64,000 nucleotides of DNA from IMG/VR virus record IMGVR_UViG_3300032294_002877, positions 1-64,000 of that record; one strand, written 5' to 3'. The position numbers and the translations under genes were made by a program. The notes below the pieces were generated by a model. The model did no database searches and was not told the DNA's origin. It worked only from the letters and a program-made list of their open reading frames with translations. Source of the DNA: a virus. Positions 6,499 to 22,513 of the stretch are shown here, one piece after another; within the stretch, counting starts at the first letter, position 1; every line of letters begins with the position of its first letter.

Positions 6499-6575
6499 TA
6501 ACTCATTACGGGGCAATAACTTATGGCATGTATCTGGCAAAAATTTGTCGTAAGTACTTGGTGCGTAAAGACTTA
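6499..6575. repeat. Paired 25-bp IHF-like palindrome element, copy 1 (52-bp period)
   Basis: TAACTCATTACGGGGCAATAACTTA (6499-6523) and TAAGTACTTGGTGCGTAAAGACTTA (6551-6575). Confidence 0.75.
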
Positions 6576-6614
6576 CGGCGAGTTTTTTGCGGTGTTGCAA
6601 AATGCAATGCAAAA

Positions 6615-6741
6615 TGCTACACATTGTAGGAAAACGATACAGCCAATATGGCAGTGCCGATATGACAGAATATCGTAACTCTAATCGTGACAATGACTTA
6701 CAACAATTCGAGAAATTTTTTTTCTTTGGCACGACGTGTGC
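6615..6741 (+). promoter_or_regulatory. sigma54-type promoter module 1 (palindromic UAS, IHF-like site, -24/-12 box)
   Basis: TGCTACA-CAT-TGTAGGA at 6615-6631; 25-bp IHF-like site at 6676-6700; TGGCACGACGTGTGC at 6727-6741. Confidence 0.7.
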
Positions 6742-6775
6742 ATTATATAGAAACATAAGAAAGAGAGAGACGAAA

Positions 6776-7006
6776 ATGAGAAACCTGATTGTTCTGAATA
6801 CTAAGGCTGAGTTGATTGCGTTCCTGAATAAGACTTCGATGCATACGCTGGTGAATAGCGTAGCGTTTGCTAGTGATTTGTTGGAAATGGTTCGTGAGAA
6901 CGATAATATTGTGGAAATAAACGAAGATTTGGGATTCGTTGATGATGGTGGATGGATTGAGATTGACGAAATGGGTTATGTTGTGAAGGATTTCGCAATC
7001 TGCTGA
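6776..7006 (+). CDS. Hypothetical protein downstream of sigma54-type promoter
   Basis: ATG after purine-rich leader AAGAAAGAGAGAGACGAAAATG. Confidence 0.65.
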   Translation: MRNLIVLNTKAELIAFLNKTSMHTLVNSVAFASDLLEMVRENDNIVEINEDLGFVDDGGWIEIDEMGYVVKDFAIC

Positions 7007-7341
7007 AAAACATTTGTTCAGTGTTGACAAGCAAAAAACCGATAAGTATACTAGGGAAAAGGAAAACAAATGATAACTCAGGAAATGCGTGATTTGGCGA
7101 ACAATCTAGGGCTCATCGTTTCGAGCGTTTGGGATGGACTTTCCCGCAAATGGATTGTTCATGAGCGAAACGGAGCGTATCATCCTGTTTTCACCACGAA
7201 CGAATATGATAGACTTATGGATGGCTTGCGAAATGGCGGAAAGTTTCGATCCCTCTAAGGTAGGGTGAATATATGTTCAGTGTATTTTTGTTCATTGTGG
7301 CAATAATTCTTATTGGAATCGCGTATCAATAAGATTTGACG

Positions 7342-7419
7342 TAAACCCTTGCGGCATAAACACTTACGACGATTTCGCGGCCAAAAATTTGACGTAACTG
7401 CTTATGCAGCAACGACTTA
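7342..7419. repeat. Paired 25-bp IHF-like palindrome element, copy 2
   Basis: Halves at 7342-7366 and 7395-7419; 53-bp period. Confidence 0.85.
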
Positions 7420-7433
7420 CGCCAAGTTTTGAC

Positions 7434-7448
7434 GCAAACGGTGTGCCA
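7434..7448 (-). promoter_or_regulatory. Minus-strand sigma54 -24/-12 box
   Basis: Reverse complement TGGCACACCGTTTGC matches TGGCAC-N5-TTGC. Confidence 0.65.
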
Positions 7449-7497
7449 AACGTGGTAACCCCCATACTGAGGGGCTGTTGCAAAATGCCGAGCAAAA

Positions 7498-7623
7498 TGC
7501 TACACATTGTAGCAAAACGCTACAGCCAATATGGCGGTGCCAAACTGACAGAATGACGCAACTCTAATAGCGATAACAACTTACAACAATTCGCAAAATT
7601 TTTTTCTTTGGCACGGTATCTGC
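7498..7623 (+). promoter_or_regulatory. sigma54-type promoter module 2
   Basis: Perfect palindrome TGCTACA-CAT-TGTAGCA at 7498-7514; IHF-like site at 7559-7583; TGGCACGGTATCTGC at 7609-7623. Forms a direct repeat of module 1. Confidence 0.72.
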
Positions 7624-7656
7624 ATTATATAGAAGCATAAGAAAGAGAGAAAGAAA

Positions 7657-7800
7657 ATGAGTAAGACGATTAGCAATGCGATGAAAAGAATTCACCAAGA
7701 GGCTAGGATTGCCAAGGCATACGATATGCCGATTATGAATAAGGATATGAAAAAGAATGATGAGGGTGTGAAAAAGTTTTTTGAGAGTCTCAAGAAATAG
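7657..7800 (+). CDS. Small basic hypothetical protein, 47 aa
   Basis: MSKTISNAMKRIHQEARIAKAYDMPIMNKDMKKNDEGVKKFFESLKK after the same purine-rich leader as 6776. Confidence 0.55.
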   Translation: MSKTISNAMKRIHQEARIAKAYDMPIMNKDMKKNDEGVKKFFESLKK

Positions 7801-7803
7801 CCC

Positions 7804-7832
7804 TTGACAAGCCGAATAAACCTATATAGAAT
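7804..7832 (+). promoter_or_regulatory. sigma70-type promoter
   Basis: TTGACA-17-TAGAAT. Confidence 0.75.
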
Positions 7833-7856
7833 ATCACCAACACAAAGGAAAAGAAA

Positions 7857-8099
7857 ATGATTTTCGAAACGATTGACGAACTGAACGAGTATCTGGCAAA
7901 CGGTGGGGATGGTGTTTCGGTTATCGGATGCACGGTGGCTGGGGAGTTGCTGGAGAGCATGAAGAACGAAGCGGTTTTTGCTCGCAAGTGGGGATGGAAA
8001 GGGTTTGCTGTGTTGACGGAATTCTACATGGGTGAGGGTGAGGAAATCTCTTGCAATGAGGATGGCGTGATCGATTATGAGCATCTCTACTTGGGATGA
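7857..8099 (+). CDS. Small acidic hypothetical protein
   Basis: ORF with RBS downstream of the promoter; Asp/Glu-rich. Confidence 0.65.
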   Translation: MIFETIDELNEYLANGGDGVSVIGCTVAGELLESMKNEAVFARKWGWKGFAVLTEFYMGEGEEISCNEDGVIDYEHLYLG

Positions 8100-8487
8100 A
8101 CGATTGTATAGTATTGACGCTCCAGAAATTTCTGCTAGAATAGAATCATAAGAAAGAGAGAAAGAAAAATGAAGACTTGGACACGAGACAATCGCCCGTT
8201 GGTTTGGACGGTGAACGAGAACAACCATGAGACGTACGATCTGTATGTACATGGTGTGTGCGTTGGTGAGGGTATGGATTTCGATACATTCTATGCCATG
8301 TATAAGCAGTACAGAAAGGTTTGAAGATACCACCCAAAAGGGGGATATACATATGTTCTATTGCTTCTGCTGGATTTTCTGCAAAATCGACAATTATTTC
8401 CAGGATAGGTACTGGAAGAAACTTGGGTATTCTAGGTATACTGGGCAGGATGGAAAAGAGTGGTATGTAAGCGATCTAAACTGATCG

Positions 8488-8565
8488 TAAACCCTTGCTA
8501 CCAAACGACTTAGGGTGAATCGGCGGCGCCCAATTTGACGTAACTCCTTGTGCGGTAACGACTTA
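8488..8565. repeat. Paired 25-bp IHF-like palindrome element, copy 3
   Basis: Halves at 8488-8512 and 8541-8565; 53-bp period. Confidence 0.85.
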
Positions 8566-8579
8566 CATGAAATGTTATC

Positions 8580-8594
8580 GCAACTGGTATGCCA
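8580..8594 (-). promoter_or_regulatory. Minus-strand sigma54 -24/-12 box
   Basis: Reverse complement TGGCATACCAGTTGC. Confidence 0.6.
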
Positions 8595-8707
8595 CAAATA
8601 TTTCTCCGTTTGGCATGAAATTATATTTGCTTTTTTGGAAAGATTTCTCTTGCAATGGCCGATAATATCTGTAGAATCAAAGCATCACAAGGAACGAAAG
8701 GGAAACC

Positions 8708-8878
8708 ATGAACGAATTCGAACGAATCATTGGGGATAGCATGATCGACGAGAACGGCAAGGAATGGATCGTGGACGATGCTACGGGTTGGGATCCGATC
8801 ATGGGAGACGACGAAGATTGGATCGACACGGATGATGAGTGGCTCGATGATTTCCAGGGTGAGGAGGAGTTTGCATGA
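8708..8878 (+). CDS. Highly acidic 56-aa protein
   Basis: MNEFERIIGDSMIDENGKEWIVDDATGWDPIMGDDEDWIDTDDEWLDDFQGEEEFA; translated by hand. Confidence 0.65.
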   Translation: MNEFERIIGDSMIDENGKEWIVDDATGWDPIMGDDEDWIDTDDEWLDDFQGEEEFA

Positions 8879-9055
8879 AAACGTACTATATTTACAATGC
8901 GGAAAATGATTTCTACTTGGGCATGGTACTTGCAAAGGATTGGGTGGACGCACGTTCAGTGTACGCCCAGCAGCATGGCGTATCATTCGGTTCAGTGTAC
9001 GCTTGTGCATCACCACTATAGGGGTAATCCCCATTGTGATGGAGATCGGTTGACG

Positions 9056-9133
9056 TAAACCCTTGCGGCGTAAGCACTTAGAGCAAATCGGCGGCGCAAA
9101 ATTTGACGTAAACCCTTACGCCACAATAACTTA
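9056..9133. repeat. Paired 25-bp IHF-like palindrome element, copy 4
   Basis: Halves at 9056-9080 and 9109-9133; 53-bp period. Confidence 0.85.
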
Positions 9134-9148
9134 CGACGAGTTTTCTTA

Positions 9149-9163
9149 GCAAATACTGTGCCA
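9149..9163 (-). promoter_or_regulatory. Minus-strand sigma54 -24/-12 box
   Basis: Reverse complement TGGCACAGTATTTGC. Confidence 0.65.
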
Positions 9164-9206
9164 AAAAATTGTGCTCAAATTGTGGGCATACCCTACTGTA
9201 TCAAAA

Positions 9207-9362
9207 TGCTACACATCTAGGTTATAGGCCGAAATACGCGACGCAAAATGCTACAACACTGTAGCGAAATGCTACGCTCAAAAGTTGGGCACAAAAAATA
9301 GCATAGCGTTTTCCCCGTGAAAATCGAGGAAAAATATTTTTCGGCTTTGGCACGGAAGATGC
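9207..9362 (+). promoter_or_regulatory. sigma54-type promoter module 3
   Basis: TGCTACA half-sites at 9207 and TGCTACA-ACAC-TGTAGCG at 9249-9266; TGGCACGGAAGATGC at 9348-9362. Confidence 0.65.
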
Positions 9363-9396
9363 ATTTATATATGGCATAAGAAAGTGAGAGTGAGAG

Positions 9397-9558
9397 ATGA
9401 TGAATGAGAAAGTGTTCTACGTTTCCGATTGCTGCTATGTTGAGAGTAACCCGGATTATGGGGTTTGCTCCTGCTGTGGTGAGCATTGCGAGATTATCAC
9501 CGATGATAGTTTGGTTTCCGACTACATTCCGGGTTATGATGATGGTGAGGCTTGCTAG
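9397..9558 (+). CDS. Small Cys/Asp-rich protein, 53 aa
   Basis: MMNEKVFYVSDCCYVESNPDYGVCSCCGEHCEIITDD...; follows module 3 leader. Confidence 0.55.
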   Translation: MMNEKVFYVSDCCYVESNPDYGVCSCCGEHCEIITDDSLVSDYIPGYDDGEAC

Positions 9559-9860
9559 TCTCCCTCAGTGTGGGGGTTGTGGATAAGAAAAAGTTTGGTA
9601 TAATACTGGAAAGAGAAAGAGAGAAAGAAAATGACGTATAAAGAAAAACTGATCCGCGAAGTTCACGAAGCCTCTAAGAAAATTACCGATCTTCGTGATA
9701 TGCTGGAGGATGGCGTTCCTGCCAGTAAGCATAAGGCTATCATCAAGCATATTGACGATCTTTCAACATTTATTTTCTATACCCAAGAGACTATCAGCGA
9801 TATGGCTTGACACCGTATCCCTAGTCTGCTAGAATCCGTCATCCTTTGGAGAAAAAGAAA

Positions 9861-10190
9861 ATGAGCAAGTTCCCGATTGTTGAGAAGGCCAAGCGTCAAG
9901 CCCGTATGATTTTTGTTGGTATGGCTATTCCATGCCAGAAGAGTCTAGCGTCCGGTGAGTATGGCCCGATTCGTTGCGAAAAGGTTCTCAAGTTCAATCG
10001 TACCGCTCTGCGGAATATCGGTAAGCGTAAGATTGAAAAGGCCGATCCCCGCCTCGTGGGGGGTGAGGATACCATGATCGTGAAGGTAGGAACACCGGGT
10101 AGTCCGGAGCGTAAAGCGGCTCTTGCCGAACAGTATGCTGCTATTCTGGCATGCGGTGAGGAAATCAGCCCGTTTGCTTGGAAGGAATAG
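9861..10190 (+). CDS. Hypothetical protein
   Basis: GGAG RBS and upstream promoter; basic protein. Confidence 0.65.
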   Translation: MSKFPIVEKAKRQARMIFVGMAIPCQKSLASGEYGPIRCEKVLKFNRTALRNIGKRKIEKADPRLVGGEDTMIVKVGTPGSPERKAALAEQYAAILACGEEISPFAWKE

Positions 10191-10330
10191 TATGAACACC
10201 CGTACACTTCAGGATATTTTGCGAGCCGAACAGGTTCGGCTACCATCCATCACTAACCCTCTCATGCGACGGATAGTGAAAAAGCGTATACAGGTGCTCG
10301 CCCGTACACTACTGTACAGGTATCGAGCTA

Positions 10331-10375
10331 GTCTCACCTAATCCTGCGGATTTGGGATAAGGTGGTATAGTCAGC
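10331..10375 (+). promoter_or_regulatory. Tripartite motif GTCYCA-N10-CGGRTTTG-N12/13-TAGTCAGC, copy 1
   Basis: Recurs 8 times, at 10331, 15559, 22655, 22830, 24235, 24366, 26163 and 26327. Confidence 0.6.
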
Positions 10376-10376
10376 G

Positions 10377-10454
10377 TAAGTCTTTAGCCAGTAAGGACTT
10401 AGAACGAATCGGCGGCGCCCAGTTTGTCGTAACTCCTTATGCAGTAAGGGTTTA
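10377..10454. repeat. Paired 25-bp IHF-like palindrome element, copy 5
   Basis: Halves at 10377-10401 and 10430-10454. Confidence 0.85.
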
Positions 10455-10697
10455 TGATCAAATTATTTTTCTAAAGGTTGGGGCAAAATTGGTCGATAAT
10501 TTATATATAAGGAGAAAAAACCATGTTGACTCTAATTCTTTGGGCTGGTATGCTGGGTTATGGTGTGGGTTATGAGGGATATTCTGATGGGAAACTGTAC
10601 GTTGGTACATATACTCCTAAGGTGGAATATGGGTGGGTTGTGACGGATAGGGGGATTTATTTGGATACGATTCTGGAAAAAAACTGAAATTTTTTGC

Positions 10698-10726
10698 TTG
10701 ACAGGCCGATAAGTATATTGTAGGAT
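10698..10726 (+). promoter_or_regulatory. sigma70-type promoter with GCCGATA spacer box
   Basis: TTGACA-GGCCGATAAGTATATTG-TAGGAT. Confidence 0.75.
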
Positions 10727-10748
10727 TGTGGTATAAGGAGAAAAGAAT

Positions 10749-11057
10749 ATGATTCACGCCGAAGCGGTTAAGATGGTTCGGGGCAAGCGTAATGCTGATC
10801 GTCGCAAGATCGGTAACAATACCTATGCGGAAATCCTATACGATAATACCGTAGCAATTAAGTTGCATAATACCTACGTTGTGAAGATTAACCCAAACGG
10901 TACATATACGTTAAATAGTGGCGGATGGCAGACCGTTACCACTAAGGATAGAATTAACCAGTACAGCCCTGTTAGGGTTTACCAGCGGGATTTTACTTGG
11001 TATGTTAAGATTAACGGCAAGGAATATCCTTTTATGGATGGGATGGTGGTGTCGTAA
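10749..11057 (+). CDS. Hypothetical phage protein
   Basis: AAGGAG RBS; 102-aa ORF. Confidence 0.7.
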   Translation: MIHAEAVKMVRGKRNADRRKIGNNTYAEILYDNTVAIKLHNTYVVKINPNGTYTLNSGGWQTVTTKDRINQYSPVRVYQRDFTWYVKINGKEYPFMDGMVVS

Positions 11058-11344
11058 TGAGTTTTTTCGGATTGTTGATATTGACAATCATTGTGGGGAT
11101 TGGTACAATTATCGTAGGGGCTGTTTTAGCCGAAACCTTTTTATCTATTCTTGACGATTAACATAAAGGAATCCACGGATGGATCTGATAGAACCTATTA
11201 GTTTCGTTTTCGGCGTAATTAGTGGAATTACCGCGTGTTATGCGGTTAGTGATCTGGTGTTCAGCAAGGAGACTAGCAATGAACGCGACGAAATCTGAAA
11301 AACTGTTTCTTATTGGTTCGTTTTTTGCTGGGTGTGTTTTATCG

Positions 11345-11422
11345 TATCTCCTTTGCCTGTAAGAACTTAGGGCAAAAGGGCGGCGCCCGGCTCGCCGTAA
11401 CTCCTTACGCACCAACGACTTA
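11345..11422. repeat. Paired 25-bp IHF-like palindrome element, copy 6
   Basis: Halves at 11345-11369 and 11398-11422. Confidence 0.85.
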
Positions 11423-11701
11423 GAGCGAAAAAAATTTTTCTAAAGATTTTGCTTGACTCTTGCCGATCTATACTGTAGAATCGAATGCAGAAGAAAGAAA
11501 GGTGAGATATGAAAACGAAGAAGCAAAACGCGTACCAAAAAGCGGTTGCTCGCATGGAAAAGGAAACAAGCCGTGCGGTTGCTCATGTGGAATTGCTCCA
11601 GAAGCTATACGCTGAAATGGTCAAAAAAAATGCTAAAGTTTCCTCTTGACAAGTGCCGATTATTCTGGTAGACTGAACCCATCACAACGGAGAAGATTAT
11701 C

Positions 11702-11854
11702 ATGTTCAATTTTGACGAAGTGAACGCGATTCTGGCCGAGATGCGAGATGGTGGTATGGTCGAGCCGATTGACGATCCGACTATCAACGTGGATTTTTGG
11801 GACTGGGCCGATGTGATCGGTGTGGTCGAAGATTTTGAGCCTTTGGAATTTTGA
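11702..11854 (+). CDS. Small acidic protein, 50 aa
   Basis: MFNFDEVNAILAEMRDGGMVEPIDDPTINVDFWDWADVIGVVEDFEPLEF; GGAG RBS and promoter at 11646-11674. Confidence 0.6.
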   Translation: MFNFDEVNAILAEMRDGGMVEPIDDPTINVDFWDWADVIGVVEDFEPLEF

Positions 11855-11864
11855 AGAGGAAGCC

Positions 11865-12122
11865 ATGAGTCACCCTGACCCCTTGTTCGATCCCGATAAC
11901 GTTTTGGAGGATGATATGAACTACGCTGATGATGTTGACGCGTCGAACTACGACGATTATGATGATTTTTACGGCGAGATTGATGCTGATGAATTGGAGA
12001 ACAGTTGGGATGATTCGTATGATGATAGTATGGATGGTGATTCTGAGTCTGCGTTCGGTTCATGCGGATGGGGTTTGGACGAATATTACAACCCCGATAC
12101 CGATCACGGAGATGATTGGTGA
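11865..12122 (+). CDS. Extremely Asp-rich protein
   Basis: GAGG RBS; MSHPDPLFDPDNVLEDDMNYADDVDASNYDDYDDF... Confidence 0.7.
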   Translation: MSHPDPLFDPDNVLEDDMNYADDVDASNYDDYDDFYGEIDADELENSWDDSYDDSMDGDSESAFGSCGWGLDEYYNPDTDHGDDW

Positions 12123-12189
12123 CTTGACTTTTGACAATTGTGTGGTAAACTAGTTTTAGGTTTTAGGGTTTTCTAACTGAAAGGTTTTT

Positions 12190-12600
12190 ATGAACGATTG
12201 GATGATTCTTGCTGGTGTTTTTGGTATTGTTCTTGCTGGTATGGTTACGTTTGCTCTGTATCATATCTATAGTGGTGTTCACTCTACTTTGGCTAATGCC
12301 CAAGTTGGTGAGGTTTACAATTTCGAGTATCTTCAGCCGCATCATGGCGATCCGGTTAGGGTTCTCGCAAGAGTAATTGAGCCTGCGTGTACGCTGAGTG
12401 ATGAGAGTATCCGTAGGCTGAATGCGACTAGTAACTATCGTGTTCACGATCCGGAATTCAAGCGTACTCGTCACCTTGTAACGTGTGAGACTCCGAATGG
12501 TGAGGTTCGACAGTTCTATGCTGAACGTGCAAAGAACGTGCGTCGTCCTCTTCTCGCGGGACTGCTTTTCCGTACAGGTACTGCACACCTGTTCGCGTGA
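12190..12600 (+). CDS. Hypothetical protein with N-terminal TM segment
   Basis: AAAGG RBS; hydrophobic N-terminus. Confidence 0.7.
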   Translation: MNDWMILAGVFGIVLAGMVTFALYHIYSGVHSTLANAQVGEVYNFEYLQPHHGDPVRVLARVIEPACTLSDESIRRLNATSNYRVHDPEFKRTRHLVTCETPNGEVRQFYAERAKNVRRPLLAGLLFRTGTAHLFA

Positions 12601-12630: not shown

Positions 12631-12708
12631 TAAGTTGTTGCCACGCAATGACTTAGGGTTCGGGGGCGCCACCCGATTTGACGTAACTCCTTATCCTCCA
12701 ACACTTTA
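12631..12708. repeat. Paired 25-bp IHF-like palindrome element, copy 7
   Basis: Halves at 12631-12655 and 12684-12708. Confidence 0.85.
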
Positions 12709-12951
12709 CGTCTCAATAATTTTTTCTATATTTTTCTCTTGACACTTGCCGATTATACTGTAGAATAATCGCATGAACACTAATAACTGCTATGCCGGAT
12801 TTTCGTGGCGTGTTTTCAAAAATAATCGGTTCGCCGGTTATGTTGTGGCTCTGAGCCAGACGGATGCTATACGCAAAGCCGTCGAGAAGTATGGTCGATA
12901 TGTGTGGGTTGAACGGATTACCTATAGTCGGGTCTAGTCAAGGGAATAAAT

Positions 12952-13995: not shown

Positions 13996-14073
13996 TAAGT
14001 TCTTGATACCAAAGGACTTAGGGCAAACCCGCGCCGCCCGGCTCGACGTAAGTGCTTGGTAGCAAAAGAGTTG
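13996..14073. repeat. Paired 25-bp IHF-like palindrome element, copy 8
   Basis: Halves at 13996-14020 and 14049-14073. The left half contains TATCAAGAACTTA on the minus strand, an exact WATCAANNNNTTR match. Confidence 0.85.
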
Positions 14074-14138
14074 CATCAAAAAAATATTTTTTCAAGAAAC
14101 CCTATTGACAAGCCGATAATAGAGTGTAGAATGATGGA

Positions 14139-14455
14139 GTAAGACAAAACAATATGCGTGGGTCCAAGCGCACGGACTAGATTGGGATAACCTGTACGAT
14201 AAACCCTTACCAGCGATTGCTGTTTGGGTTGCCTAACGGGGTTATACGTTGGGATAGTATACCAGTCTATGGGGGATCGCGTCCTCACCACGCTCCATAC
14301 AACCAGTAACCGTCACCAAGAGCCAGACTAACCGGAACATGATGCTAGCAGTTCATCCGGTTACAGGGAGGTTTCCGTGGGCGGTTTCCATCCGATCCTG
14401 ACAAGGGACAATCGTATGGTCTATAGGAATCGGGGCGTAAAAGATTCCGCTGGTT
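14139..14455 (+). ncRNA. Candidate structured ncRNA, about 310 nt
   Basis: Own promoter (TTGACA 14105 / TAGAAT 14127), no plus-strand ORF, several helices including TAGATTGG/CCAGTCTA, CCTAACG/CGTTGGG, TAACCGGA/TCCGGTTA and GGAATC/GATTCC. Confidence 0.5.
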
Positions 14456-15330: not shown

Positions 15331-15408
15331 TAAGTGATTGGGATATAAAGACTTACGACAAAGCGGCGCCACCCGATTCGCCCTAACTCTTTATGCTGCA
15401 ACAACTTA
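15331..15408. repeat. Paired 25-bp IHF-like palindrome element, copy 9
   Basis: Halves at 15331-15355 and 15384-15408. Confidence 0.85.
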
Positions 15409-16484: not shown

Positions 16485-16485
16485 T

Positions 16486-16857
16486 ATGATCAAGTTGGAA
16501 CTGAGTGTTCGTGAGGCTATGAATCTGGCGACGAACTGCCACCTCGATATCTATGAGCGGATCGTAAACGCTTTCGAGGTTGCGTTGGGTGTTAACCAGA
16601 ATAAGATGGTGACGATCACCAGAGGTATGACTCTCGACAATCGTATTGGTTGCATCAAGGCCATTCGACTCCATACTGGTTGGGGATTGAAGGAGGCAAA
16701 GGAGTGGACGGATTTTCTGGTGGGTGGCTGGAAGTACGACAAGTGGAATCCTGCTCCTACTGGTAGGACGCAGAGTATCACTCTCAAGACTCCCGAAGCG
16801 GCTGAAAATCTCCTCCGCGATCTTGTTGGTTTGGGTTGCGAAGGCTATCTTTCGTAA
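16486..16857 (+). CDS. Protein with ribosomal bL12 (L7/L12) C-terminal-domain-like motif
   Basis: RIGCIKAIRLHTGWGLKEAKEWTD resembles the bL12 CTD motif KIxVIKxVRxxTGLGLKEAKxLVE. Confidence 0.7.
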   Translation: MIKLELSVREAMNLATNCHLDIYERIVNAFEVALGVNQNKMVTITRGMTLDNRIGCIKAIRLHTGWGLKEAKEWTDFLVGGWKYDKWNPAPTGRTQSITLKTPEAAENLLRDLVGLGCEGYLS

Positions 16858-16859
16858 CC

Positions 16860-16937
16860 TAAAGCCTTGCAACTAAAGAACTTAGAGCGAGGCAGCGGGG
16901 CCGTGTTTGCCATAAGTCCTTATGTCACAACAACTTA
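16860..16937. repeat. Paired 25-bp IHF-like palindrome element, copy 10
   Basis: Halves at 16860-16884 and 16913-16937. Confidence 0.85.
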
Positions 16938-17131
16938 CAGCCAATCAAAAAAATATTCATGTATCGACCTTGACTTGCCGATACTATATGGTAGAATGAT
17001 AGCATCACACGACAAGACGCTAACTGACCACAACACAAAAAAGTTCAGCCTAGCACTTGACAAGTGATGTTGTCTGATGTATGATTACTTTACTTGGTTC
17101 GATTACACTTTTGGAAAGGTTAGGTTTGACT

Positions 17132-17389
17132 ATGCGTACTTATGATTTTGCGGTTGCTGTTGCTTCTGATTCGCTGGATACCGAGGTGGTTGAGGATACG
17201 ATCAAGCAGGCTCTTGCTGACGGTCTGCCCGATGGTACGCTTGTGGTCGTGAAGGCCCAGGGTATCAAGGACTATTCCGAGCAGGGTTGGAAGGTTGCTC
17301 GTAACCGTAAGTTTGGCGTGAGTGCCAAGGAAGCGGGCGATGCCCACAAGGCGAAGTTGACGCGAATTGACGAGGCGACACCCGCCTGA
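17132..17389 (+). CDS. Hypothetical protein
   Basis: AGGT RBS; upstream TTGACA promoter. Confidence 0.65.
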   Translation: MRTYDFAVAVASDSLDTEVVEDTIKQALADGLPDGTLVVVKAQGIKDYSEQGWKVARNRKFGVSAKEAGDAHKAKLTRIDEATPA

Positions 17390-17399
17390 CAATTCAAAC

Positions 17400-17644
17400 T
17401 GGACTATGCCAGTATAAAGAGATTTTAGGCATAGTGCGGCGGGATTCGTCCCGCGTAATGAGAGTTCGTTGCAGACCTAGGTGCAGCCTAGAGAGGGATT
17501 TAACCAATCCTATAAGACGGGTGGTTCCGTCGAAAGTTGTTGCTCTCTAGAGTTTTATTACTAATATAGATGGTACAACAACGCCAGCAAACCGATAGAC
17601 GCTGACGAGCCCCGGCGGTAGCACCGTCCGGGCTATCGGTCTAT
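17400..17644 (+). ncRNA. Candidate multi-hairpin structured RNA directly upstream of the tRNA cluster
   Basis: Helices ACTATGCC/GGCATAGT, GCGGGA/TCCCGC, CTAGAGAG/CTCTCTAG enclosing two hairpins, ACCGATAG/CTATCGGT, and GTTGTTG/CAACAAC (possible pseudoknot). Confidence 0.55.
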
Positions 17645-17716
17645 GGGGCCATAGTTAAATGGATATAACACGGGATTTCTAATCCTGTATTGTAGGTTCG
17701 ATTCCTACTGGCCCTA
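17645..17716 (+). tRNA. tRNA-Arg(TCT)
   Basis: Acceptor GGGGCCA/TGGCCCT; anticodon loop TT-TCT-AA; GGTTCGATTCC T arm. Confidence 0.9.
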
Positions 17717-17723
17717 CTTTTTT

Positions 17724-17797
17724 GGGGGTGTAGATCAATTGGTTAGATCGTTAGCCTGTCACGCTAAAGGTTGCGGGTTCAAGTCCCGTCACCCTCG
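17724..17797 (+). tRNA. tRNA-Asp(GTC)
   Basis: GGGGGTG/CACCCTC; TTAGC-CTGTCAC-GCTAA. Confidence 0.92.
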
Positions 17798-17800
17798 CTA

Positions 17801-17883
17801 GGTGGATTACTCAAGTGGTCAACGAGGGCAGACTGTAAATCTGCTGGCTTTTGCCTTCGGGAGTTCGAATCTCTCATCCACCA
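17801..17883 (+). tRNA. tRNA-Tyr(GTA)
   Basis: GGTGGAT/ATCCACC; GCAGA-CTGTAAA-TCTGC; long variable arm. Confidence 0.92.
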
Positions 17884-17961
17884 TAAATCCTTACGTGATA
17901 AGCACTTAGGGTAAGGACGCGGGACCGCGTTTGTCGCAAGTCGTTACTGCACAAGCACTTG
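17884..17961. repeat. Paired 25-bp IHF-like palindrome element, copy 11
   Basis: Halves at 17884-17908 and 17937-17961; abuts the tRNA-Tyr 3' end. Confidence 0.8.
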
Positions 17962-18043
17962 CATCAAAAATATTTTTTCTACAGTTTTTCTCTTGACCAT
18001 ACCGATACCATAAGGTAGAATCGGTAGACACACGGAGAAAGAT

Positions 18044-18748
18044 ATGAAAACTGCTGATGGTAACGATAAGTTGGGTAAGGGTTGCATTGTGGTTTCGCGT
18101 CCGGTTGGCGACACTTGCCCACCCGATTGTGATTATCTTGGTAATGGCTGCTATGCCGAGGCTACCGAGAATCAGTACAAAAATGCCCGTACTGCCGGGT
18201 TTGCTAATGTTGTTACAGAAAAGCATAAGATTCGCTCTATGATTCTTGACGCTAAAAAGCGTGAGAAAAGTATCCGTTGGCATGAGCGTGGCGATTGGTT
18301 TCTCAATGGCGAACTTGACCTAGACTATCTTGCTAATGTAACGTGGGCTTGTGAAAGTATACTTGCCGATGGCGATACTCTACCCGATATGTGGTTTTAT
18401 ACTCATATCTACGATAATCGTCTGGTAAGTCTTAGTAAGTATATGGCAGTATATGCCAGTGTCCATGACGATAAGGATATGGGCGAGGCTATGGCACAAG
18501 GTTTCAAACTGTTCGCGTGGTGCGACAGCGATATGAAGATTGCCCCAAAGCGTCCCAAGCACAAGCCGAAAGCCGAGGCTTGGCGTAAGGCGTTGCCAAA
18601 ACTTGTTGTGTTGAACGGCGAGAAGTTTGTAACGTGTCCAGAGATTCGTCGTGGTCGTGCGGTTATTACTTGTACGGGCACGAAGGATAGTATCGAGTGT
18701 AATATGTGCGTCAAGGGTTTGGCTAACGTGTTATTTCCTGCTCACTAG
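18044..18748 (+). CDS. Gp88-like Cys-rich protein (possible Fe-S/radical-SAM-like)
   Basis: TCPPDCDYLGNGCYA, IRWHERGDW and C-terminal TCPE...C...CNMC motifs. Confidence 0.55.
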   Translation: MKTADGNDKLGKGCIVVSRPVGDTCPPDCDYLGNGCYAEATENQYKNARTAGFANVVTEKHKIRSMILDAKKREKSIRWHERGDWFLNGELDLDYLANVTWACESILADGDTLPDMWFYTHIYDNRLVSLSKYMAVYASVHDDKDMGEAMAQGFKLFAWCDSDMKIAPKRPKHKPKAEAWRKALPKLVVLNGEKFVTCPEIRRGRAVITCTGTKDSIECNMCVKGLANVLFPAH

Positions 18749-18922
18749 GATTTGCTATGAAATATTGGGAAAAAATTGAAGACGATAAAGTTAGAAGTGT
18801 TTGGCGTTGCCCATTATGTACTGATGAAGTAAACATTGAACCTTCTTGGTATCAGTATAATGGTACTCCAATGTGTGTCGATTGTGACGAAGATATGTAC
18901 TATCTAAAAACGGAGACTAATC

Positions 18923-19183
18923 GTGGCTAAGTATTATATCAAATGCGGATCTTTAGAACTAATCTACAGCACAAGCGAAACTCCGTTTGAGGCGGCGTGT
19001 GCTACGCTATGGGAGTGTAACGATTTTGATATTCTGGACGAAAACTTTTATATTGACGAACGAGGATTCCGAGACTACGCATCTGCACAACCAGATACGG
19101 TGGTTATCCCCCTAAATGAAGTAGCAGACCATGAGGGATGGAGTCTTAGTAGCGATAGCGATGAAGACTGTGAAGGTAAGTAG
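18923..19183 (+). CDS. Hypothetical protein
   Basis: GGAG RBS with GTG start; the stop lies inside repeat copy 12. Confidence 0.65.
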   Translation: MAKYYIKCGSLELIYSTSETPFEAACATLWECNDFDILDENFYIDERGFRDYASAQPDTVVIPLNEVADHEGWSLSSDSDEDCEGK

Positions 19184-19254
19184 TTACGGCGTAAGGACTT
19201 AGGGCAAGGGGGCGCGGCCCGGCTCGATGTAAGTCGTTACGCAGTAAGGATTTA
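19177..19254. repeat. Paired 25-bp IHF-like palindrome element, copy 12
   Basis: TAAGTAGTTACGGCGTAAGGACTTA, 28-bp spacer, TAAGTCGTTACGCAGTAAGGATTTA. Confidence 0.9.
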
Positions 19255-19314
19255 GGATTTTTTAAAGTTTGGTTTGGCGAATAGCCGATAAATGGTGTAG
19301 AAAGGGATTGACAG

Positions 19315-19662
19315 ATGAAACAAAATGTGGTACAACTACTTGTAGGATTGCTTGGGTTATTCGTTCTAGTGTGGGGCGAAGTCAAGCACTACAGTGAATC
19401 TCATCCAGAGATTCTCTCCAACCTACAAATAGAAGCAAGAAGGGCAGAACCTCTAGAGTATTACAACTATCAGGTCGCATATGATCCTAATAGTGGTAAA
19501 ACTTGGTATTATTACGGGGATGGATATTGGTATGACAAGCCGCCGCAAATACGAAAACGTCAAAATCAAGGTCAAGAAAAGGTGGGAACTGTCCACTGGG
19601 CATCGGGAACACCGCAACACGGTAATGGACAACCGAATCAAGCGACAGCGTACCCGAAATGA
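19315..19662 (+). CDS. Hypothetical membrane-anchored protein
   Basis: N-terminal hydrophobic segment. Confidence 0.6.
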   Translation: MKQNVVQLLVGLLGLFVLVWGEVKHYSESHPEILSNLQIEARRAEPLEYYNYQVAYDPNSGKTWYYYGDGYWYDKPPQIRKRQNQGQEKVGTVHWASGTPQHGNGQPNQATAYPK

Positions 19663-19703
19663 TATTGACAGGACTTGGCGTAACGACTATGATATGTAGT
19701 CTT

Positions 19704-19776
19704 GCCGATGTAACTCAGTTGGTAGAGTAACGGTTTTGTAAACCGTCTGTCGCCGGATCGTTCCCGGCCATCGGCT
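19704..19776 (+). tRNA. tRNA-Thr(TGT), non-canonical T loop
   Basis: GCCGATG/CATCGGC; ACGGT-TTTGTAA-ACCGT; T loop ATCGTTC. Confidence 0.85.
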
Positions 19777-19777
19777 C

Positions 19778-19848
19778 TCCGGGATGGTGAAACGGTATCA
19801 CAGAGGACTTTGGATCCTTTATTCTACGTTCGAATCGTAGTCCCGGAA
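19778..19848 (+). tRNA. tRNA-Gln(TTG)
   Basis: TCCGGGA/TCCCGGA; GAGGA-CTTTGGA-TCCTT. Confidence 0.88.
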
Positions 19849-19876
19849 TCGGAGGCTGACGTTAGAGTTACGGAGT

Positions 19877-19948
19877 TGGCGAGTAGCACAACGGTAGTGC
19901 AAGCGGCTGTTAACCGCTAGGTTACAGGTTCGAATCCTGTCTCGCCAG
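19877..19948 (+). tRNA. tRNA-Asn(GTT)
   Basis: TGGCGAG/CTCGCCA; GCGG-CTGTTAA-CCGC. Confidence 0.92.
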
Positions 19949-19951
19949 TTT

Positions 19952-20036
19952 GGAATCTTGGCAGAGTGGTCTAATGCAGCGGTTTACTAAACCGCCGAAG
20001 AGAAATCTTCCGGGGGTTCGAATCCCTCAGATTCCG
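19952..20036 (+). tRNA. tRNA-Ser(ACT), unusual A34 anticodon
   Basis: GGAATCT/AGATTCC, G discriminator, long variable arm; GCGGT-TTACTAA-ACCGC. Confidence 0.85.
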
Positions 20037-20040
20037 AATT

Positions 20041-20112
20041 GGCCCCATAGTATAATGGCTAGTATACCGGGCTTTCATCCCGGAGATCGGAGTTCGATCC
20101 TCCGTGGGGCTA
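20041..20112 (+). tRNA. tRNA-Glu(TTC)
   Basis: GGCCCCA/TGGGGCT; CCGGG-CTTTCAT-CCCGG. Confidence 0.9.
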
Positions 20113-20353
20113 CTAAAGTTTTGGGTCTTGACAGGACGATAAGAGTATGGTATGATCGAAGCAACCTCAGAGGGAAACATGAAGAAGATCAAGGTTTACA
20201 ATATCGTATTGGAAAATGGTACACAGCATTTTGGGGATATTATTCTTGAGATGGGTATGGATTTTACTTGGACTGACGTGTTCGATGAGATGGAAAAGAT
20301 TTTAGCCGAAAATGTCGATAGTTATAGTTATGAAGAAATAACTTGACACTGTT

Positions 20354-20426
20354 GGGTTTCTAACTCAATTGGTAGAGTAGCGGCCTTTTAAGCCGTAGGT
20401 TCTGGGTTCGAGTCCCAGGGAACCCA
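20354..20426 (+). tRNA. tRNA-Lys(TTT)
   Basis: GGGTTTC/GGAACCC; GCGGC-CTTTTAA-GCCGT. Confidence 0.92.
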
Positions 20427-20477
20427 CTTGACAGTTTAGCCAGTTTGGTGTATGATTGGGGAAAAGGAGAAAGTATT

Positions 20478-20639
20478 ATGGGTGAATACGAATACGATTA
20501 TGATCGTTTGGTTGATGACGCTGATGATCTGATGGAAGATGAGGATTACGGCGATGAGTCGTATGATTGCGACTATGTAAATGAACGCGAGTTTGATTGC
20601 TATTATCATACATTGACAGACGAATTGGCTGACGAATAA
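20478..20639 (+). CDS. Extremely acidic 53-aa protein
   Basis: AAGGAG RBS; MGEYEYDYDRLVDDADDLMEDEDYGDESYDCDY... Confidence 0.65.
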   Translation: MGEYEYDYDRLVDDADDLMEDEDYGDESYDCDYVNEREFDCYYHTLTDELADE

Positions 20640-20737
20640 ACTTTCTCCTCAACGGATGCAACTTGGTGGGACAAGTATTCTATAATAAGGATTATCCTTT
20701 CTCTCTCTTCTAGTACGTTCGAATCGTACCATCCGTT

Positions 20738-21247
20738 ATGAGCAATATTCTGAATCAAAATGTTGAAGATGTTCGGCATACTGCTGATGGCAAATTTATC
20801 CAAGGTGCCAGCCACACTTGTCGAGTGATTAATCACAAATCACGCAATAAGATTATCATCAAGGCTATCTGCGATCTGCGTAAGATTAAAGATAGTTTCG
20901 ACACAATCTCCTGTTGCGGGGTGAGTGGTTTAATGGTGGTTCCACAAATTGCCGAGATTCTAGAAAAGAATATTCTGGTAGTTCGTAAGGATGAACGACG
21001 CTATAGTGAATTCCTAATGGAAGGGGCTGCTCCTTACCGGTATATTATAGTAGATGATCTGGTGTGTTCAGGACGAACGGTACGCTATATCAAGAATACG
21101 ATCTATGAGGATAATCCACGGGCTAAGTGTGTTGGCGTGTATTGCTATATCCCAGATGAGTGTGCGTATGTCGGGGATGAAGGGATTAAACTGTTTCATA
21201 GAGATTTTGGTACTACGCTTCTAAACCCTTACCACAAAACAACTTAG
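20738..21247 (+). CDS. Type I phosphoribosyltransferase-family protein
   Basis: PRPP-binding motif YIIVDDLVCSGRTV. Confidence 0.8.
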   Translation: MSNILNQNVEDVRHTADGKFIQGASHTCRVINHKSRNKIIIKAICDLRKIKDSFDTISCCGVSGLMVVPQIAEILEKNILVVRKDERRYSEFLMEGAAPYRYIIVDDLVCSGRTVRYIKNTIYEDNPRAKCVGVYCYIPDECAYVGDEGIKLFHRDFGTTLLNPYHKTT

Positions 21248-21299
21248 GACAAATCGGGGCGGCCCGGCCAGCCCTAAGTCCTTACGCCACAAACACTTA
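21222..21299. repeat. Paired 25-bp IHF-like palindrome element, copy 13
   Basis: Halves at 21222-21246 and 21275-21299; overlaps the end of the PRTase gene. Confidence 0.88.
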
Positions 21300-21330
21300 C
21301 GTCACGAAAATTTTTCCACAAGTTTTCCGC

Positions 21331-21358
21331 TTGACACGCCGATAAGATATGGTAGAAT
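21331..21358 (+). promoter_or_regulatory. sigma70-type promoter with GCCGATA spacer box
   Basis: TTGACA-CGCCGATAAGATATGG-TAGAAT. Confidence 0.75.
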
Positions 21359-21394
21359 CAGTGAAGTAGAACGAAGTACGATAACACGAAGGAG

Positions 21395-22348
21395 ATGATG
21401 ATGCCTGCTGCTGTTGAAAAGATGATGTTTGTTGGTGCTACCCCGTGGCACGGTGAGGGTACGCAACTCGACGAGAATCCGTCGATCAGCGAAGCGATTA
21501 CCGCTGCTGGTCTGGATTGGGAAGTCGGGACAAAGCCGCTGTTTACGGCGGAGGGTACGGAAGTCAATGCGAAGGCCACCTATCGCAAGAGCGATAATCG
21601 GGTGCTGGGCGTTGTGGGTCCGCGTTACACTCCGTTGCAGAATCAGGATGCTTTCGATTGGTTCCAGCCGTTTCTCGACGCTGGCGAGTGCCAACTCCAT
21701 ACGGCTGGCTCGCTCTGCGAAGGTGAGAAGGTTTGGGTTCTCGCTCAACTCAATCGTGAGAACAGCGAGATTGTTCCCGGTGACGAGGTGAGCAAGTTTA
21801 TCCTGCTGTCTAACAGCCACGACGGTTCAACGTCGATCCGCGTCGGATACACTCCGATTCGCGTGGTCTGCGTCAACACGCTCGCGGCTGCTCATCGCAG
21901 CAACGATAGCCAGTTGATTCGGATTCGTCACACACGCTCCAGCAAGGTCAATCTGGAGAACGTGCGAGATATCATGGATAATATCAACGTGCAGTTTGAG
22001 GCTACTGCGGAACAGTATCGGTTCCTCGCTAGCAAGAATTTCAACCAGAACGATATCAAGCGTTATGTCAAGGTGATGCTCGGTATCGATAAGACTCCGG
22101 ACGAGGATATCAAGACTCGCACGAAGAATATCATGGACGAGATTCTCGCCCTTGTGGAAGGTCCGAAGCAAGCCGCAACCAATGTTCGCGGAACTTGGTG
22201 GGCTGCTTACAACGGGTACAACGAGTACCTCAACTACAACAAGGGTCGTAACGTGAGCAATCGACTCGATTCGCTCTGGTTCGGCCAGAATGGGGTTGAC
22301 AACCTCAAGGCACTCAACACTGCTGTGGAGTTTGCGAACGCCGTCTGA
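21395..22348 (+). CDS. DUF932 (TIGR03299-like) phage/plasmid protein
   Basis: TPWHGEG, AGLDWEV, VLGVVGxRYTPLQN, LLSNSHDGS, PIRVVCVNTL and RIRHT motifs. Confidence 0.9.
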   Translation: MMMPAAVEKMMFVGATPWHGEGTQLDENPSISEAITAAGLDWEVGTKPLFTAEGTEVNAKATYRKSDNRVLGVVGPRYTPLQNQDAFDWFQPFLDAGECQLHTAGSLCEGEKVWVLAQLNRENSEIVPGDEVSKFILLSNSHDGSTSIRVGYTPIRVVCVNTLAAAHRSNDSQLIRIRHTRSSKVNLENVRDIMDNINVQFEATAEQYRFLASKNFNQNDIKRYVKVMLGIDKTPDEDIKTRTKNIMDEILALVEGPKQAATNVRGTWWAAYNGYNEYLNYNKGRNVSNRLDSLWFGQNGVDNLKALNTAVEFANAV

Positions 22349-22372
22349 TCTTCAGTCACGATGAAGAGTGAA

Positions 22373-22416
22373 GCCGCCGTAGGGGTTGCCCAAGACCTCT
22401 GCGGCGGTTTCTTTTT
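22373..22416 (+). terminator. Rho-independent terminator
   Basis: GCCGCCGTAGGGGT / ACCTCTGCGGCGGT hairpin followed by TTCTTTTT. Confidence 0.75.
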
Positions 22417-22435
22417 AATCCGACGACATTTGACG

Positions 22436-22513
22436 TAAACCATTGGTATTAAAAGACTTAGGGCTCGCGGGGGCCGCAAATTTCGTCCTAAATTCAATAC
22501 TGGTAAGGACTTA
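22436..22513. repeat. Paired 25-bp IHF-like palindrome element, copy 14
   Basis: Halves at 22436-22460 and 22489-22513. Confidence 0.85.

What the first reader, a model, noticed from the sequence alone, without database searches (positions are those of the whole stretch)
6499..22513. Fourteen copies of a strictly phased double palindrome (2 x 25 bp, 53-bp period) between early gene modules, resembling paired symmetric IHF sites
Seen: copies start at 6499, 7342, 8488, 9056, 10377, 11345, 12631, 13996, 15331, 16860, 17884, 19177, 21222 and 22436. Each is TAA-N4-TT(G/A)-N5-(C/T)AA-N4-TTA, then a mostly GC-rich 28-bp spacer, then a second such palindrome. Thirteen have an exact 53-bp period and one has 52, although the sequences have diverged. 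They typically overlap or abut the stop codon of the upstream gene, and most are followed by an A/T tract and a TTGACA promoter. Paired copies were not seen beyond 22.5 kb. Established: the IHF consensus is WATCAANNNNTTR, and lambda H' has the same AAA-N4-TTG-N5-CAA-N4-TTG geometry. Copy 8 contains an exact consensus match. A 53-bp period is about 5 helical turns, so two sharp bends would be in phase. Inference: this may be an architectural array in which host IHF/HU or a phage protein folds the early region. Possible roles are promoter insulation, help with genome entry or condensation, or recombination anchors for shuffling promoter-gene cassettes, analogous to T4-type PeSL cassettes.
Basis: partly seen in the sequence, partly recalled or inferred. 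Interest (0 to 1): 0.88.

Follow-up and report, generated by a model that had tools for sequence, protein, structure and literature searches.

The report
Phased double-palindrome sites before phage promoters
An uncultured 180-kb freshwater phage and many of its relatives place a rigid 78-bp pair of symmetric DNA sites between a gene end and the next early promoter; the evidence points to a docking site for a DNA-bending protein rather than an RNA hairpin, but the protein is unknown.

Summary
All 14 double palindromes are at the stated coordinates: 13 with a 53-bp period and one with 52. There are 25 exact half-sites against 0.5 expected by chance, and none elsewhere in the 180-kb genome.

The same element, with the same 53-bp period, occurs in more than 100 related viral contigs. 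In each of five complete relatives it is confined to one ~15-kb region.

Three pairing schemes show no covariation, RNA folds differ between copies, and there is no terminator signature. It is therefore not a PeSL-type stem-loop.

It does behave as a face-of-helix DNA site:
- Its distance to the downstream -35 box falls into classes of 20, 30-31, 41-42 and 52-53 nt.
- A single copy sits at about -65, the classical IHF position, in 8 of 17 sigma54-type promoter modules.

The kink geometry matches IHF/HU-family sites. The full IHF consensus does not (1 of 28 half-sites here), and the phages encode no HU/IHF homologue.

Synteny breaks are no more frequent at elements than at control points, so the recombination-anchor idea gains no specific support.

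Best reading (about 0.5): paired sites for a bending protein that form the upstream module of early promoter cassettes. Other readers of this scan had already noted the sigma54 boxes on this window.

The parts
6499..6575 (+). double palindrome 1 (52-bp period); followed by a sigma54-type module
7342..7419 (+). double palindrome 2; reverse sigma54 box 15 nt downstream
8488..8565 (+). double palindrome 3; reverse sigma54 box, then the TTGCAA promoter at 8650
9056..9133 (+). double palindrome 4; its first TAA is the stop codon of ORF 8897-9058
10377..10454 (+). double palindrome 5; A/T tract and weak -35 (TTGGGG) downstream
11345..11422 (+). double palindrome 6 (first half degenerate: TAT for TAA); -35 box 30 nt downstream
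12631..12708 (+). double palindrome 7; -35 box 30 nt downstream
13996..14073 (+). double palindrome 8; holds the only exact IHF consensus (minus strand, 13996-14008); -35 box 31 nt downstream
15331..15408 (+). double palindrome 9; -35 box 30 nt downstream
16860..16937 (+). double palindrome 10; starts 3 nt after the stop of ORF 16486-16857; -35 box 32 nt downstream
17884..17961 (+). double palindrome 11; starts directly after tRNA-Tyr (ends 17883); -35 box 31 nt downstream
19177..19254 (+). double palindrome 12; overlaps the stop of ORF 18923-19183
21222..21299 (+). double palindrome 13; overlaps the end of ORF 20738-21247; -35 box 31 nt downstream
22436..22513 (+). double palindrome 14 (second half degenerate); preceded by the region's only clear intrinsic terminator (22370-22411)
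6676..6700 (+). single half-degenerate palindrome ending 26 nt before the forward sigma54 box at 6727 (centre about -65)
7558..7582 (+). single half-degenerate palindrome ending 26 nt before the forward sigma54 box at 7609
22571..22595 (+). single palindrome downstream of the promoter at 22527; role unknown
11423..11481 (+). example of the downstream part of the cassette: A/T tract with a TTTTCTAAAG-like motif, -35 TTGACT, a conserved CCGATA block in the spacer, and -10 TAGAAT. Similar promoters start at 12739, 14105, 15439, 16970, 17993, 21331 and 22527
7434..7448 (-). reverse sigma54-type box TGGCAC-N5-TTGC next to element 2; similar boxes at 8580 and 9149
6727..6742 (+). forward sigma54-type box TGGCACG-N4-GTGCA with GCAAAATGC repeats upstream; similar boxes at 7609 and 9348

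Best explanation
Each 25-bp palindrome is a two-fold symmetric double-stranded DNA site for a dimeric DNA-bending protein. Its core is TAA-N4-TT-N7-AA-N4-TTA, and its arms resemble TAAGTCCTT.

Two such sites are held exactly 53 bp (five helical turns) apart by a G+C-rich spacer of variable sequence but invariant length, so two sharp bends would lie in phase. The pair has a fixed polarity. It forms the upstream module of a composite cassette: gene end, double site, A/T-rich UP-like tract, strong sigma70 early promoter (or a sigma54-type module), ribosome-binding site, small early genes.

The bound protein would wrap the upstream DNA on a defined face of the helix relative to RNA polymerase. That could stimulate the promoter, or insulate it from its tandem neighbours.

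Shown: the existence of the element, its conservation, its strict spacing, the absence of pairing selection, helical phasing to the promoter, and single copies at about -65 in sigma54 modules.

Inferred: that a protein binds, that it bends DNA, and which protein it is. A host IHF/HU-family protein is the leading candidate, because early promoters must fire before phage proteins exist and the phages encode no such protein. A virion-delivered or early phage protein remains possible.
For: 1. DNA palindromy without pairing selection. In 173 unique oriented copies, the variable positions of the arms pair no more often than shuffled columns. This holds for the local hairpins, the inner global pairing and the outer global pairing (z between -5 and +2). 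MFE folds differ between copies, and several have z near 0.

2. Strict spacing. Without forcing the spacing, 375 adjacent half-site pairs in relatives are 53 bp apart, 13 are 52, and at most 3 fall at any other value from 50 to 55. The spacer sequence itself varies.

3. Helical phasing. The distance from the end of the second palindrome to the -35 box clusters at 20, 30-31, 41-42 and 52-53 nt. Rayleigh R is 0.70-0.72 at a period of about 10.7 (p<1e-4), both for 108 copies and for 49 de-replicated ones. Half-turn classes are nearly empty.

4. Single copies at sigma54 modules. In 8 of 17 unique forward sigma54 modules, a single palindrome ends 25-26 nt before TGGCA. It lies between the GCAAAATGC repeats and the core promoter.

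5. Geometry. The TT and AA steps are 9 bp apart, and the middle T of TTA lies 6 bp beyond. PMC5829579 gives the same values for IHF-H' and HU complexes.

6. Fixed polarity. A weight matrix orients 95% of copies relative to the promoter.

7. Confinement. The arrays occupy one early, promoter-dense region in six genomes.
Against: - The full IHF consensus is rare in the sites. Position 16 is C in only 14% (first palindrome) and 55% (second palindrome) of copies.
- ACTTA, which falls inside IHF's unspecified N4, is 90-95% conserved. This argues for a more specific reader than E. coli IHF.
- No 42- or 63-bp variants of the spacing exist. That fits a single complex spanning both sites, or descent as a unit, better than two independent benders.
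- About 20 strong sigma70 promoters in the same region lack the element, so it is not needed for promoter activity as such.
- No binding data exist, and the host is unknown. MAG bins holding such contigs span many phyla.
- The copies are related by descent, so the phasing statistics overstate independence.
Confidence: 0.5

Rival explanations
1. The sites are operators for a phage-encoded regulator. A tetramer, or two cooperating dimers, would span both palindromes and shut off or insulate early promoters at the early-to-middle switch. Bending need not be the main effect.
For: - The sites carry high information and conserve specific bases outside the IHF consensus (ACTTA, G-N-C-G flanks).
- The invariant 53-bp spacing, with a G+C-rich core that is weakly dyad-symmetric about the element's centre, fits one symmetric complex.
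- The motif is confined to this phage clade and is absent from real bacterial chromosomes.
Against: - The sites lie 20-53 nt upstream of the -35 box and do not overlap the core promoter.
- Half-site centres 16 bp apart fall on opposite faces of the helix, which is unusual for helix-turn-helix dimers.
- No DNA-binding domain was found in the 20 early-region ORFs scanned, and the atlas gave no lead.
- Single copies sit where a bending protein is expected in sigma54 modules.
Confidence: 0.22
2. The element is an RNA-level or hairpin element. It would be a PeSL-type terminator, or a REP/BIME-like 3' stem-loop that ends or stabilises the upstream transcript.
For: - Position: directly after gene ends (110 of 165 within -15 to +27 nt of a stop) and before an A/T tract plus promoter. 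This is where T4-type PeSLs carry their stem-loop (PMC4122927).
- REP dimers also sit next to ORF 3' ends in inverted pairs with spacers of conserved length (PMC3733652).
- Some copies fold well (z -3.5 to -5.3).
Against: - No covariation in any pairing scheme; complementarity at or below chance.
- Folds are inconsistent between copies.
- There is no T run after a G+C stem, and terminator-like sites are not enriched (14 against 12.3 expected).
- The only symmetry in the G+C core leaves a loop of 2 nt, which cannot form in RNA.
- Helical phasing to the promoter has no RNA explanation.
Confidence: 0.08
3. The elements are chiefly recombination anchors, or mobile cassette ends, that shuffle promoter-gene cassettes. 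This would be PeSL-like homologous exchange or minicircle formation, or a site-specific system.
For: - The region is mosaic. 23 of 83 elements in relatives join cassettes that are not neighbours in the window, and 13 lie where the window has no element.
- Several nucleotide-level junctions project onto element edges.
Against: - Against matched control points inside the arrays, breaks are not enriched (26/83 against 61/219, p=0.57).
- The apparently clean swaps rest on paralogous promoter sequence.
- No tyrosine recombinase or Y1 transposase is present in five genomes.
- Recombination alone does not explain the invariant anchors, the 53-bp spacing or the promoter phasing.
Confidence: 0.1
4. The elements are signals for genome entry, condensation or packaging, acting on the first-injected end.
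For: The elements cluster in one ~15-kb region of each genome.
Against: - Coordinates in the relatives are arbitrary: three of the five complete records were assembled with terminal overlaps.
- The elements are tied individually to promoters at helical-turn distances, which such a role does not require.
Confidence: 0.03

Closest known systems
PeSL cassettes (promoter-early stem-loops) of T4-type phages (Arbiol et al. 2010, PMC2839356; Comeau et al. 2014, PMC4122927)
   Same: - A repeated composite lies between small early genes in a hyperplastic region.
- The order of parts is the same: element, A/T-rich tract, near-consensus sigma70 promoter, Shine-Dalgarno sequence, start codon.
- The surrounding region is mosaic between relatives.
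   Different: - PeSLs carry a simple G/C stem-loop that acts as a terminator. Here there is a 78-bp double palindrome with no pairing selection and no terminator signature.
- Here the internal spacing is strict and the distance to the promoter is helically phased.
- Breakpoints are not enriched at the elements.
- The phage has a DnaE-type polymerase, and no T4-type capsid match was found (that search is not informative, because no control rang).
IHF sites between enhancer and core at sigma54 promoters, and upstream IHF sites of sigma70 promoters such as lambda pL (the lambda pL case is from my own knowledge)
   Same: - TT-N7-AA kink geometry with TTA 6 bp beyond.
- A single copy centred near -65 between the upstream repeats and the -24/-12 box.
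- Helical-face dependence upstream of sigma70 promoters.
   Different: - The sites are two-fold symmetric and always paired at 53 bp.
- The WATC part of the consensus is not conserved, while ACTTA is.
- Information content is much higher than in typical IHF sites.
- The binder is untested.
REP dimers and BIMEs of bacteria, especially CGTC-tagged head-to-head dimers (Di Nocera et al. 2013, PMC3733652)
   Same: - Palindromic units of 25-37 bp with 9-bp arms that begin with A/T.
- CG(T/A)C next to the arms.
- Inverted pairs with a spacer of conserved length.
- Position next to ORF 3' ends.
- BIMEs are known docking sites for IHF and gyrase (the docking point is from my own knowledge).
   Different: - The stems are not maintained by complementarity.
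- The G-N-C-G / C-G-N-C flanks occur on both sides, so they extend the palindrome rather than forming an unpaired head.
- The copies are confined to one 16-kb region instead of being dispersed.
- The arms are A/T-rich.
- The setting is a phage, and no RAYT transposase is present.
Phage nucleoprotein switches: phi29 p4/p6 complexes at the early promoters, and SPO1 TF1 (an HU-family homodimer) sites at early promoters
   Same: Symmetric sites for bending proteins are arranged at helical-turn spacings around phage early promoters and fold the promoter region.
   Different: - Those proteins are phage-encoded and known. Here no candidate gene was found.
- Here the site is a dispersed 14-copy cassette module rather than one control region.

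Membership tests
IHF binding site (E. coli type) | Consensus WATCAANNNNTTR | tested here: not met
   Matched by 1 of the window's 28 half-sites and by 7-10 of 173 copies of each palindrome. Window-wide there are 10 matches against 7.9 expected.
IHF binding site (E. coli type) | Two kinkable steps 9 bp apart, with the TTR element 6 bp beyond the nearer kink | tested here: met
   TT at positions 8-9 and AA at 17-18 are near-invariant in the window's own half-sites (the relatives' copies were selected on these positions). TTA at 23-25 puts its middle T 6 bp past the AA step. Reference values are from PMC5829579. This is a match of geometry only.
IHF binding site (E. coli type) | Placement between the activator sites and the -24/-12 box of sigma54 promoters | tested here: met
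   In 8 of 17 forward sigma54 modules a single palindrome ends 25-26 nt before TGGCA. The other 9 carry a different sequence at that place.
IHF binding site (E. coli type) | Binding and bending by IHF | not testable with these tools
   The host is unknown. No HU/IHF gene is present in six phage genomes.
PeSL (T4-type promoter-early stem-loop) | Stem-loop acting as a transcription terminator just upstream of the promoter | tested here: not met
   No covariation, inconsistent folds, and no enrichment of terminator-like sites.
PeSL (T4-type promoter-early stem-loop) | A/T-rich tract, sigma70 early promoter, SD and start codon downstream, in a hyperplastic region of small ORFs | tested here: met
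   121 of 165 copies have a sigma70-like promoter within 100 nt.
PeSL (T4-type promoter-early stem-loop) | Indel and exchange breakpoints at the elements | tested here: inconclusive
   The region is mosaic, but breaks are not enriched over control points.
REP/BIME (CGTC-type dimer) | Palindromic unit that forms a stem-loop maintained by complementary changes | tested here: not met
REP/BIME (CGTC-type dimer) | Unpaired GTAG or CGTC head at one end | tested here: inconclusive
   GACG precedes the second palindrome in 46% of copies and CGAC/CGTC follows it in 30%. These flanks occur on both sides, so they extend the palindrome.
REP/BIME (CGTC-type dimer) | Extragenic, next to ORF 3' ends, in inverted pairs with a spacer of conserved length | tested here: met
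REP/BIME (CGTC-type dimer) | High copy number, dispersed over the genome | tested here: not met
   14 copies within 16 kb of 180 kb. Relatives have 4-11 exact-pattern copies within about 15 kb.
Integron attC cassette array | IntI-type tyrosine recombinase, and a folded attC hairpin kept by complementarity | tested here: not met
   No PF00589 match in five genomes. No covariation in the global pairing.

The most novel reading that the evidence does not exclude
The element is a previously undescribed viral cis-regulatory scaffold. It would be a rigid, two-fold symmetric site with four arms that, once bound, wraps about one superhelical turn of DNA just upstream of each early promoter module. This would both present the UP-like tract to RNA polymerase and act as a topological and transcriptional boundary between tandem strong promoters. 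The binder would be a host nucleoid protein with a palindromic preference, or an unrecognised virion-delivered phage protein. The same site would be re-used singly as the bending element of phage sigma54 promoters.
Probability: 0.2. Interest if true: 0.8.

Novelty: new variant of a known kind. Interest (0 to 1): 0.62.

Why it matters
Little is known about how large uncultured phages organise early transcription. This element is clade-wide, highly constrained and easy to synthesise. It ties DNA architecture to promoter position with single-helical-turn precision.

If a bending protein binds it, there would be a portable, phase-dependent promoter module. It would also be a natural example of paired in-phase bends, and it could serve as a handle for identifying the host factor, and so perhaps the host, of a widespread group of freshwater phages.

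It also corrects the easy assumption that palindromes between phage early genes are terminators of the PeSL kind.

Tried and rejected
- **RNA hairpin or terminator.** Rejected on covariation, folds and the terminator scan.
- **Exact IHF consensus.** Rejected.
- **Phage-encoded HU/IHF.** None found in six genomes.
- **Phage-encoded sigma54 activator.** The only weak PF00158 match is a RuvB homologue.
- **REP mobilisation by a Y1 transposase, or an integron-like recombinase.** Neither is present.
- **Breakpoint enrichment.** A first nucleotide-level test suggested enrichment (46 of 72 junctions broken at elements against 50 of 108 at control points). It was confounded by paralogous promoter sequence. 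A protein-level test with matched controls showed none.
- **Host inference.** True copies in the genome collection occur only on short phage-like contigs binned into MAGs of many phyla. Single hits in large bacterial chromosomes are chance matches or tandem repeats.
- **Candidate binder among early ORFs.** Pfam found nothing relevant for 20 ORFs, and the atlas search of the most widespread 114-aa ORF gave no lead.
- **Near relatives among cultured phages.** None found.
- **T4 capsid family search.** Found nothing, but no control rang either, so it is uninformative.

Full report
**Setting**

The window is the first 64 kb of a 180,460-bp viral contig with 35% G+C, rated complete by CheckV. The phage has:
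- a split DnaE-type polymerase;
- rIIA, ligase, GlmS and RuvB homologues;
- 11 tRNA genes in the window;
- a block of giant minus-strand ORFs.

No cultured phage is close to it.

Between 6.5 and 23 kb the coding strand is plus throughout. Where ORFs on the two strands overlap, the plus-strand ORF is always the better conserved one in relatives. The region is packed with small ORFs and about 30 strong sigma70-type promoters, against an expectation far lower.

All 14 units are at the stated coordinates, 13 with a 53-bp period and one with 52. The anchor pattern TAA-N4-TT-N7-AA-N4-TTA occurs 25 times in the window against 0.53 expected, always between 6.5 and 22.6 kb. A weight-matrix scan of the whole genome finds no other pair.

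Each arm resembles TAAGTCCTT, and the palindrome extends into G-N-C-G / C-G-N-C flanks. The 28-bp spacer varies in sequence but is 72% G+C, and 89% G+C in its central 12 bp.

**The element is clade-wide**

In five complete relatives of 200-238 kb, the 4-11 exact-pattern copies lie within one ~15-kb region each. The reversed control pattern gave zero matches.

When the spacing is not forced, 375 adjacent half-site pairs in relatives are 53 bp apart, 13 are 52, and almost none take other values.

True copies in the bacterial genome collection occur only on short phage-like contigs binned into freshwater MAGs of many phyla. The host stays unknown.

**Not an RNA or hairpin element**

I tested 173 unique oriented copies under three pairing schemes: each palindrome on itself, the inner global pairing, and the outer global pairing. 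In all three, the variable positions pair no more often than shuffled columns, and often less.

Predicted RNA folds differ in topology from copy to copy, and several are no better than shuffles. Terminator-like sites are not enriched; the only clear one lies before element 14, not in it.

The slight dyad symmetry at the spacer centre would leave a 2-nt loop. It is therefore a property of duplex DNA, not of RNA.

**A DNA site read on one face of the helix**

The element has a fixed polarity relative to transcription. It sits between a gene end and a promoter: 110 of 165 copies have an open frame ending within -15 to +27 nt, and 121 of 165 have a sigma70-like promoter within 100 nt.

Promoters that follow an element have an A/T tract with a TTTTCTAAAG-like motif. 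About 20 other strong promoters in the region have neither the tract nor the element.

The distance from the end of the second palindrome to the -35 box is quantised at 20, 30-31, 41-42 and 52-53 nt. Rayleigh R is 0.70 at a period near 10.7 for 108 copies and 0.72 for 49 de-replicated ones, with p<1e-4. Together with the 53-bp internal period, this puts both palindromes and the promoter on a common helical face. That has a natural explanation only for a protein-DNA architecture.

**Link to sigma54 modules**

Copies 1-4 are followed by sigma54-type sequences instead of a sigma70 promoter.
- Forward boxes at 6727, 7609 and 9348 have GCAAAATGC repeats upstream and a ribosome-binding site downstream.
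- Reverse boxes at 7434, 8580 and 9149 lie 15-16 nt from elements 2-4.

Other first-stage notes on this window had listed both kinds of box, and I confirmed them independently.

Among 17 unique forward modules in the window and its relatives, 8 carry a single palindrome ending 25-26 nt before TGGCA. Its centre is then at about -65, between the upstream repeats and the core promoter. This is where sigma54 promoters classically carry an IHF site. It is the best contextual evidence that the palindrome is a bending site.

The phages encode no sigma54 activator that I could find.

**Is it IHF?**

The geometry fits. The near-invariant TT and AA steps are 9 bp apart, and the TTA lies 6 bp beyond. These match the kink spacing and the TTR position described for IHF-H' and for HU (PMC5829579).

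The sequence does not fit. The full consensus occurs in 1 of the window's 28 half-sites and in 7-10 of 173 copies of each palindrome in the wider set. It is not enriched in the window. The key C is often A or T, whereas ACTTA, inside IHF's unspecified N4, is 90-95% conserved.

No HU/IHF gene is present in six genomes.

So the element works like a symmetrised IHF-family site, but it cannot be filed as an IHF site. A host protein is favoured for sites that serve early promoters. The high specificity and the rigid 53-bp spacing keep a phage-encoded or virion-borne binder in play.

**Recombination anchors**

The array region is mosaic. Of 83 elements in relatives whose two flanks map to the window at the protein level:
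- 47 join the same neighbours as in the window;
- 13 lie where the window has no element;
- 23 join non-neighbouring cassettes.

A first nucleotide-level test suggested clean swaps at element edges, but it relied on paralogous promoter sequence. With matched control points inside the arrays, breaks are equally common: 26/83 against 61/219, p=0.57.

No tyrosine recombinase or Y1 transposase is present. A PeSL-like role in shuffling is therefore possible but gains no specific support.

**Comparison with known systems**

- **T4-type PeSLs** share the layout and the genomic setting, but carry a true terminator stem-loop (PMC4122927).
- **CGTC-type REP dimers** share 9-bp arms that start with A/T, CG(T/A)C flanks, inverted pairing with a spacer of conserved length, and placement next to ORF 3' ends (PMC3733652). 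They are dispersed stem-loops, which these elements are not.
- **IHF sites** at sigma54 and some sigma70 promoters share geometry and placement.

The element is best described as a new variant: a paired, phased, symmetric bending-type site built into phage early promoter cassettes.

**Verdict**

- Observation: confirmed.
- Best explanation: confidence about 0.5.
- Interest: 0.62.

Noticed in passing
window 6594-9400: Three forward sigma54-type promoter modules: TGGCACG-N4-NTGCA followed by TTATATAG or TTTATATA, with GCAAAATGC / TGTAGC palindromic repeats upstream. There are 17 unique such modules across the window and its relatives. No sigma54 activator or sigma54 gene was found in the phage.
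   Followed up: partly
window 7434-7448, 8580-8594, 9149-9163, 13367 (minus strand): Near-consensus reverse sigma54 boxes (TGGCAC-N5-TTGC) point into the double palindromes. Of the 152 sigma54-type boxes found in the window and relatives, many are of this reverse kind. They often form an inverted pair with a downstream TGGCATGAAATTATAT-like box. It is unclear whether they are promoters or protein sites.
   Followed up: partly
genome 138646-179345 (L004-L006), minus strand: Nine consecutive very large ORFs (432 to 2318 aa) fill about 40 kb. One has weak matches to virion structural families.
   Followed up: no
window 14105-14455: A strong promoter is followed by about 320 nt with no conserved plus-strand ORF. 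The stretch is conserved in several relatives and is placed after different elements in different genomes.
   Followed up: no
window 22571-22595: A single palindrome of the same family lies about 15 nt downstream of the -10 box of the promoter at 22527, inside the transcribed leader.
   Followed up: no
window 10749-11057: A 102-aa ORF, 93% identical in relatives, matches the Kyanoviridae Gp96 family. This is a link to T4-like cyanophages, although the phage has a DnaE-type polymerase.
   Followed up: no
L126:1378-2304 (genome 66049-66975): A full-length RuvB homologue (RuvB_N, lid and C-terminal winged helix) is encoded by the phage.
   Followed up: no
L132, L139, L143, L152 (MAG-binned contigs): A subclade with about 45% G+C has spacers of 86-96% G+C and an almost invariant second palindrome (TAAGTCCTTTGATACCAAC...). 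Its TATCAA is one base out of register with the IHF consensus.
   Followed up: partly
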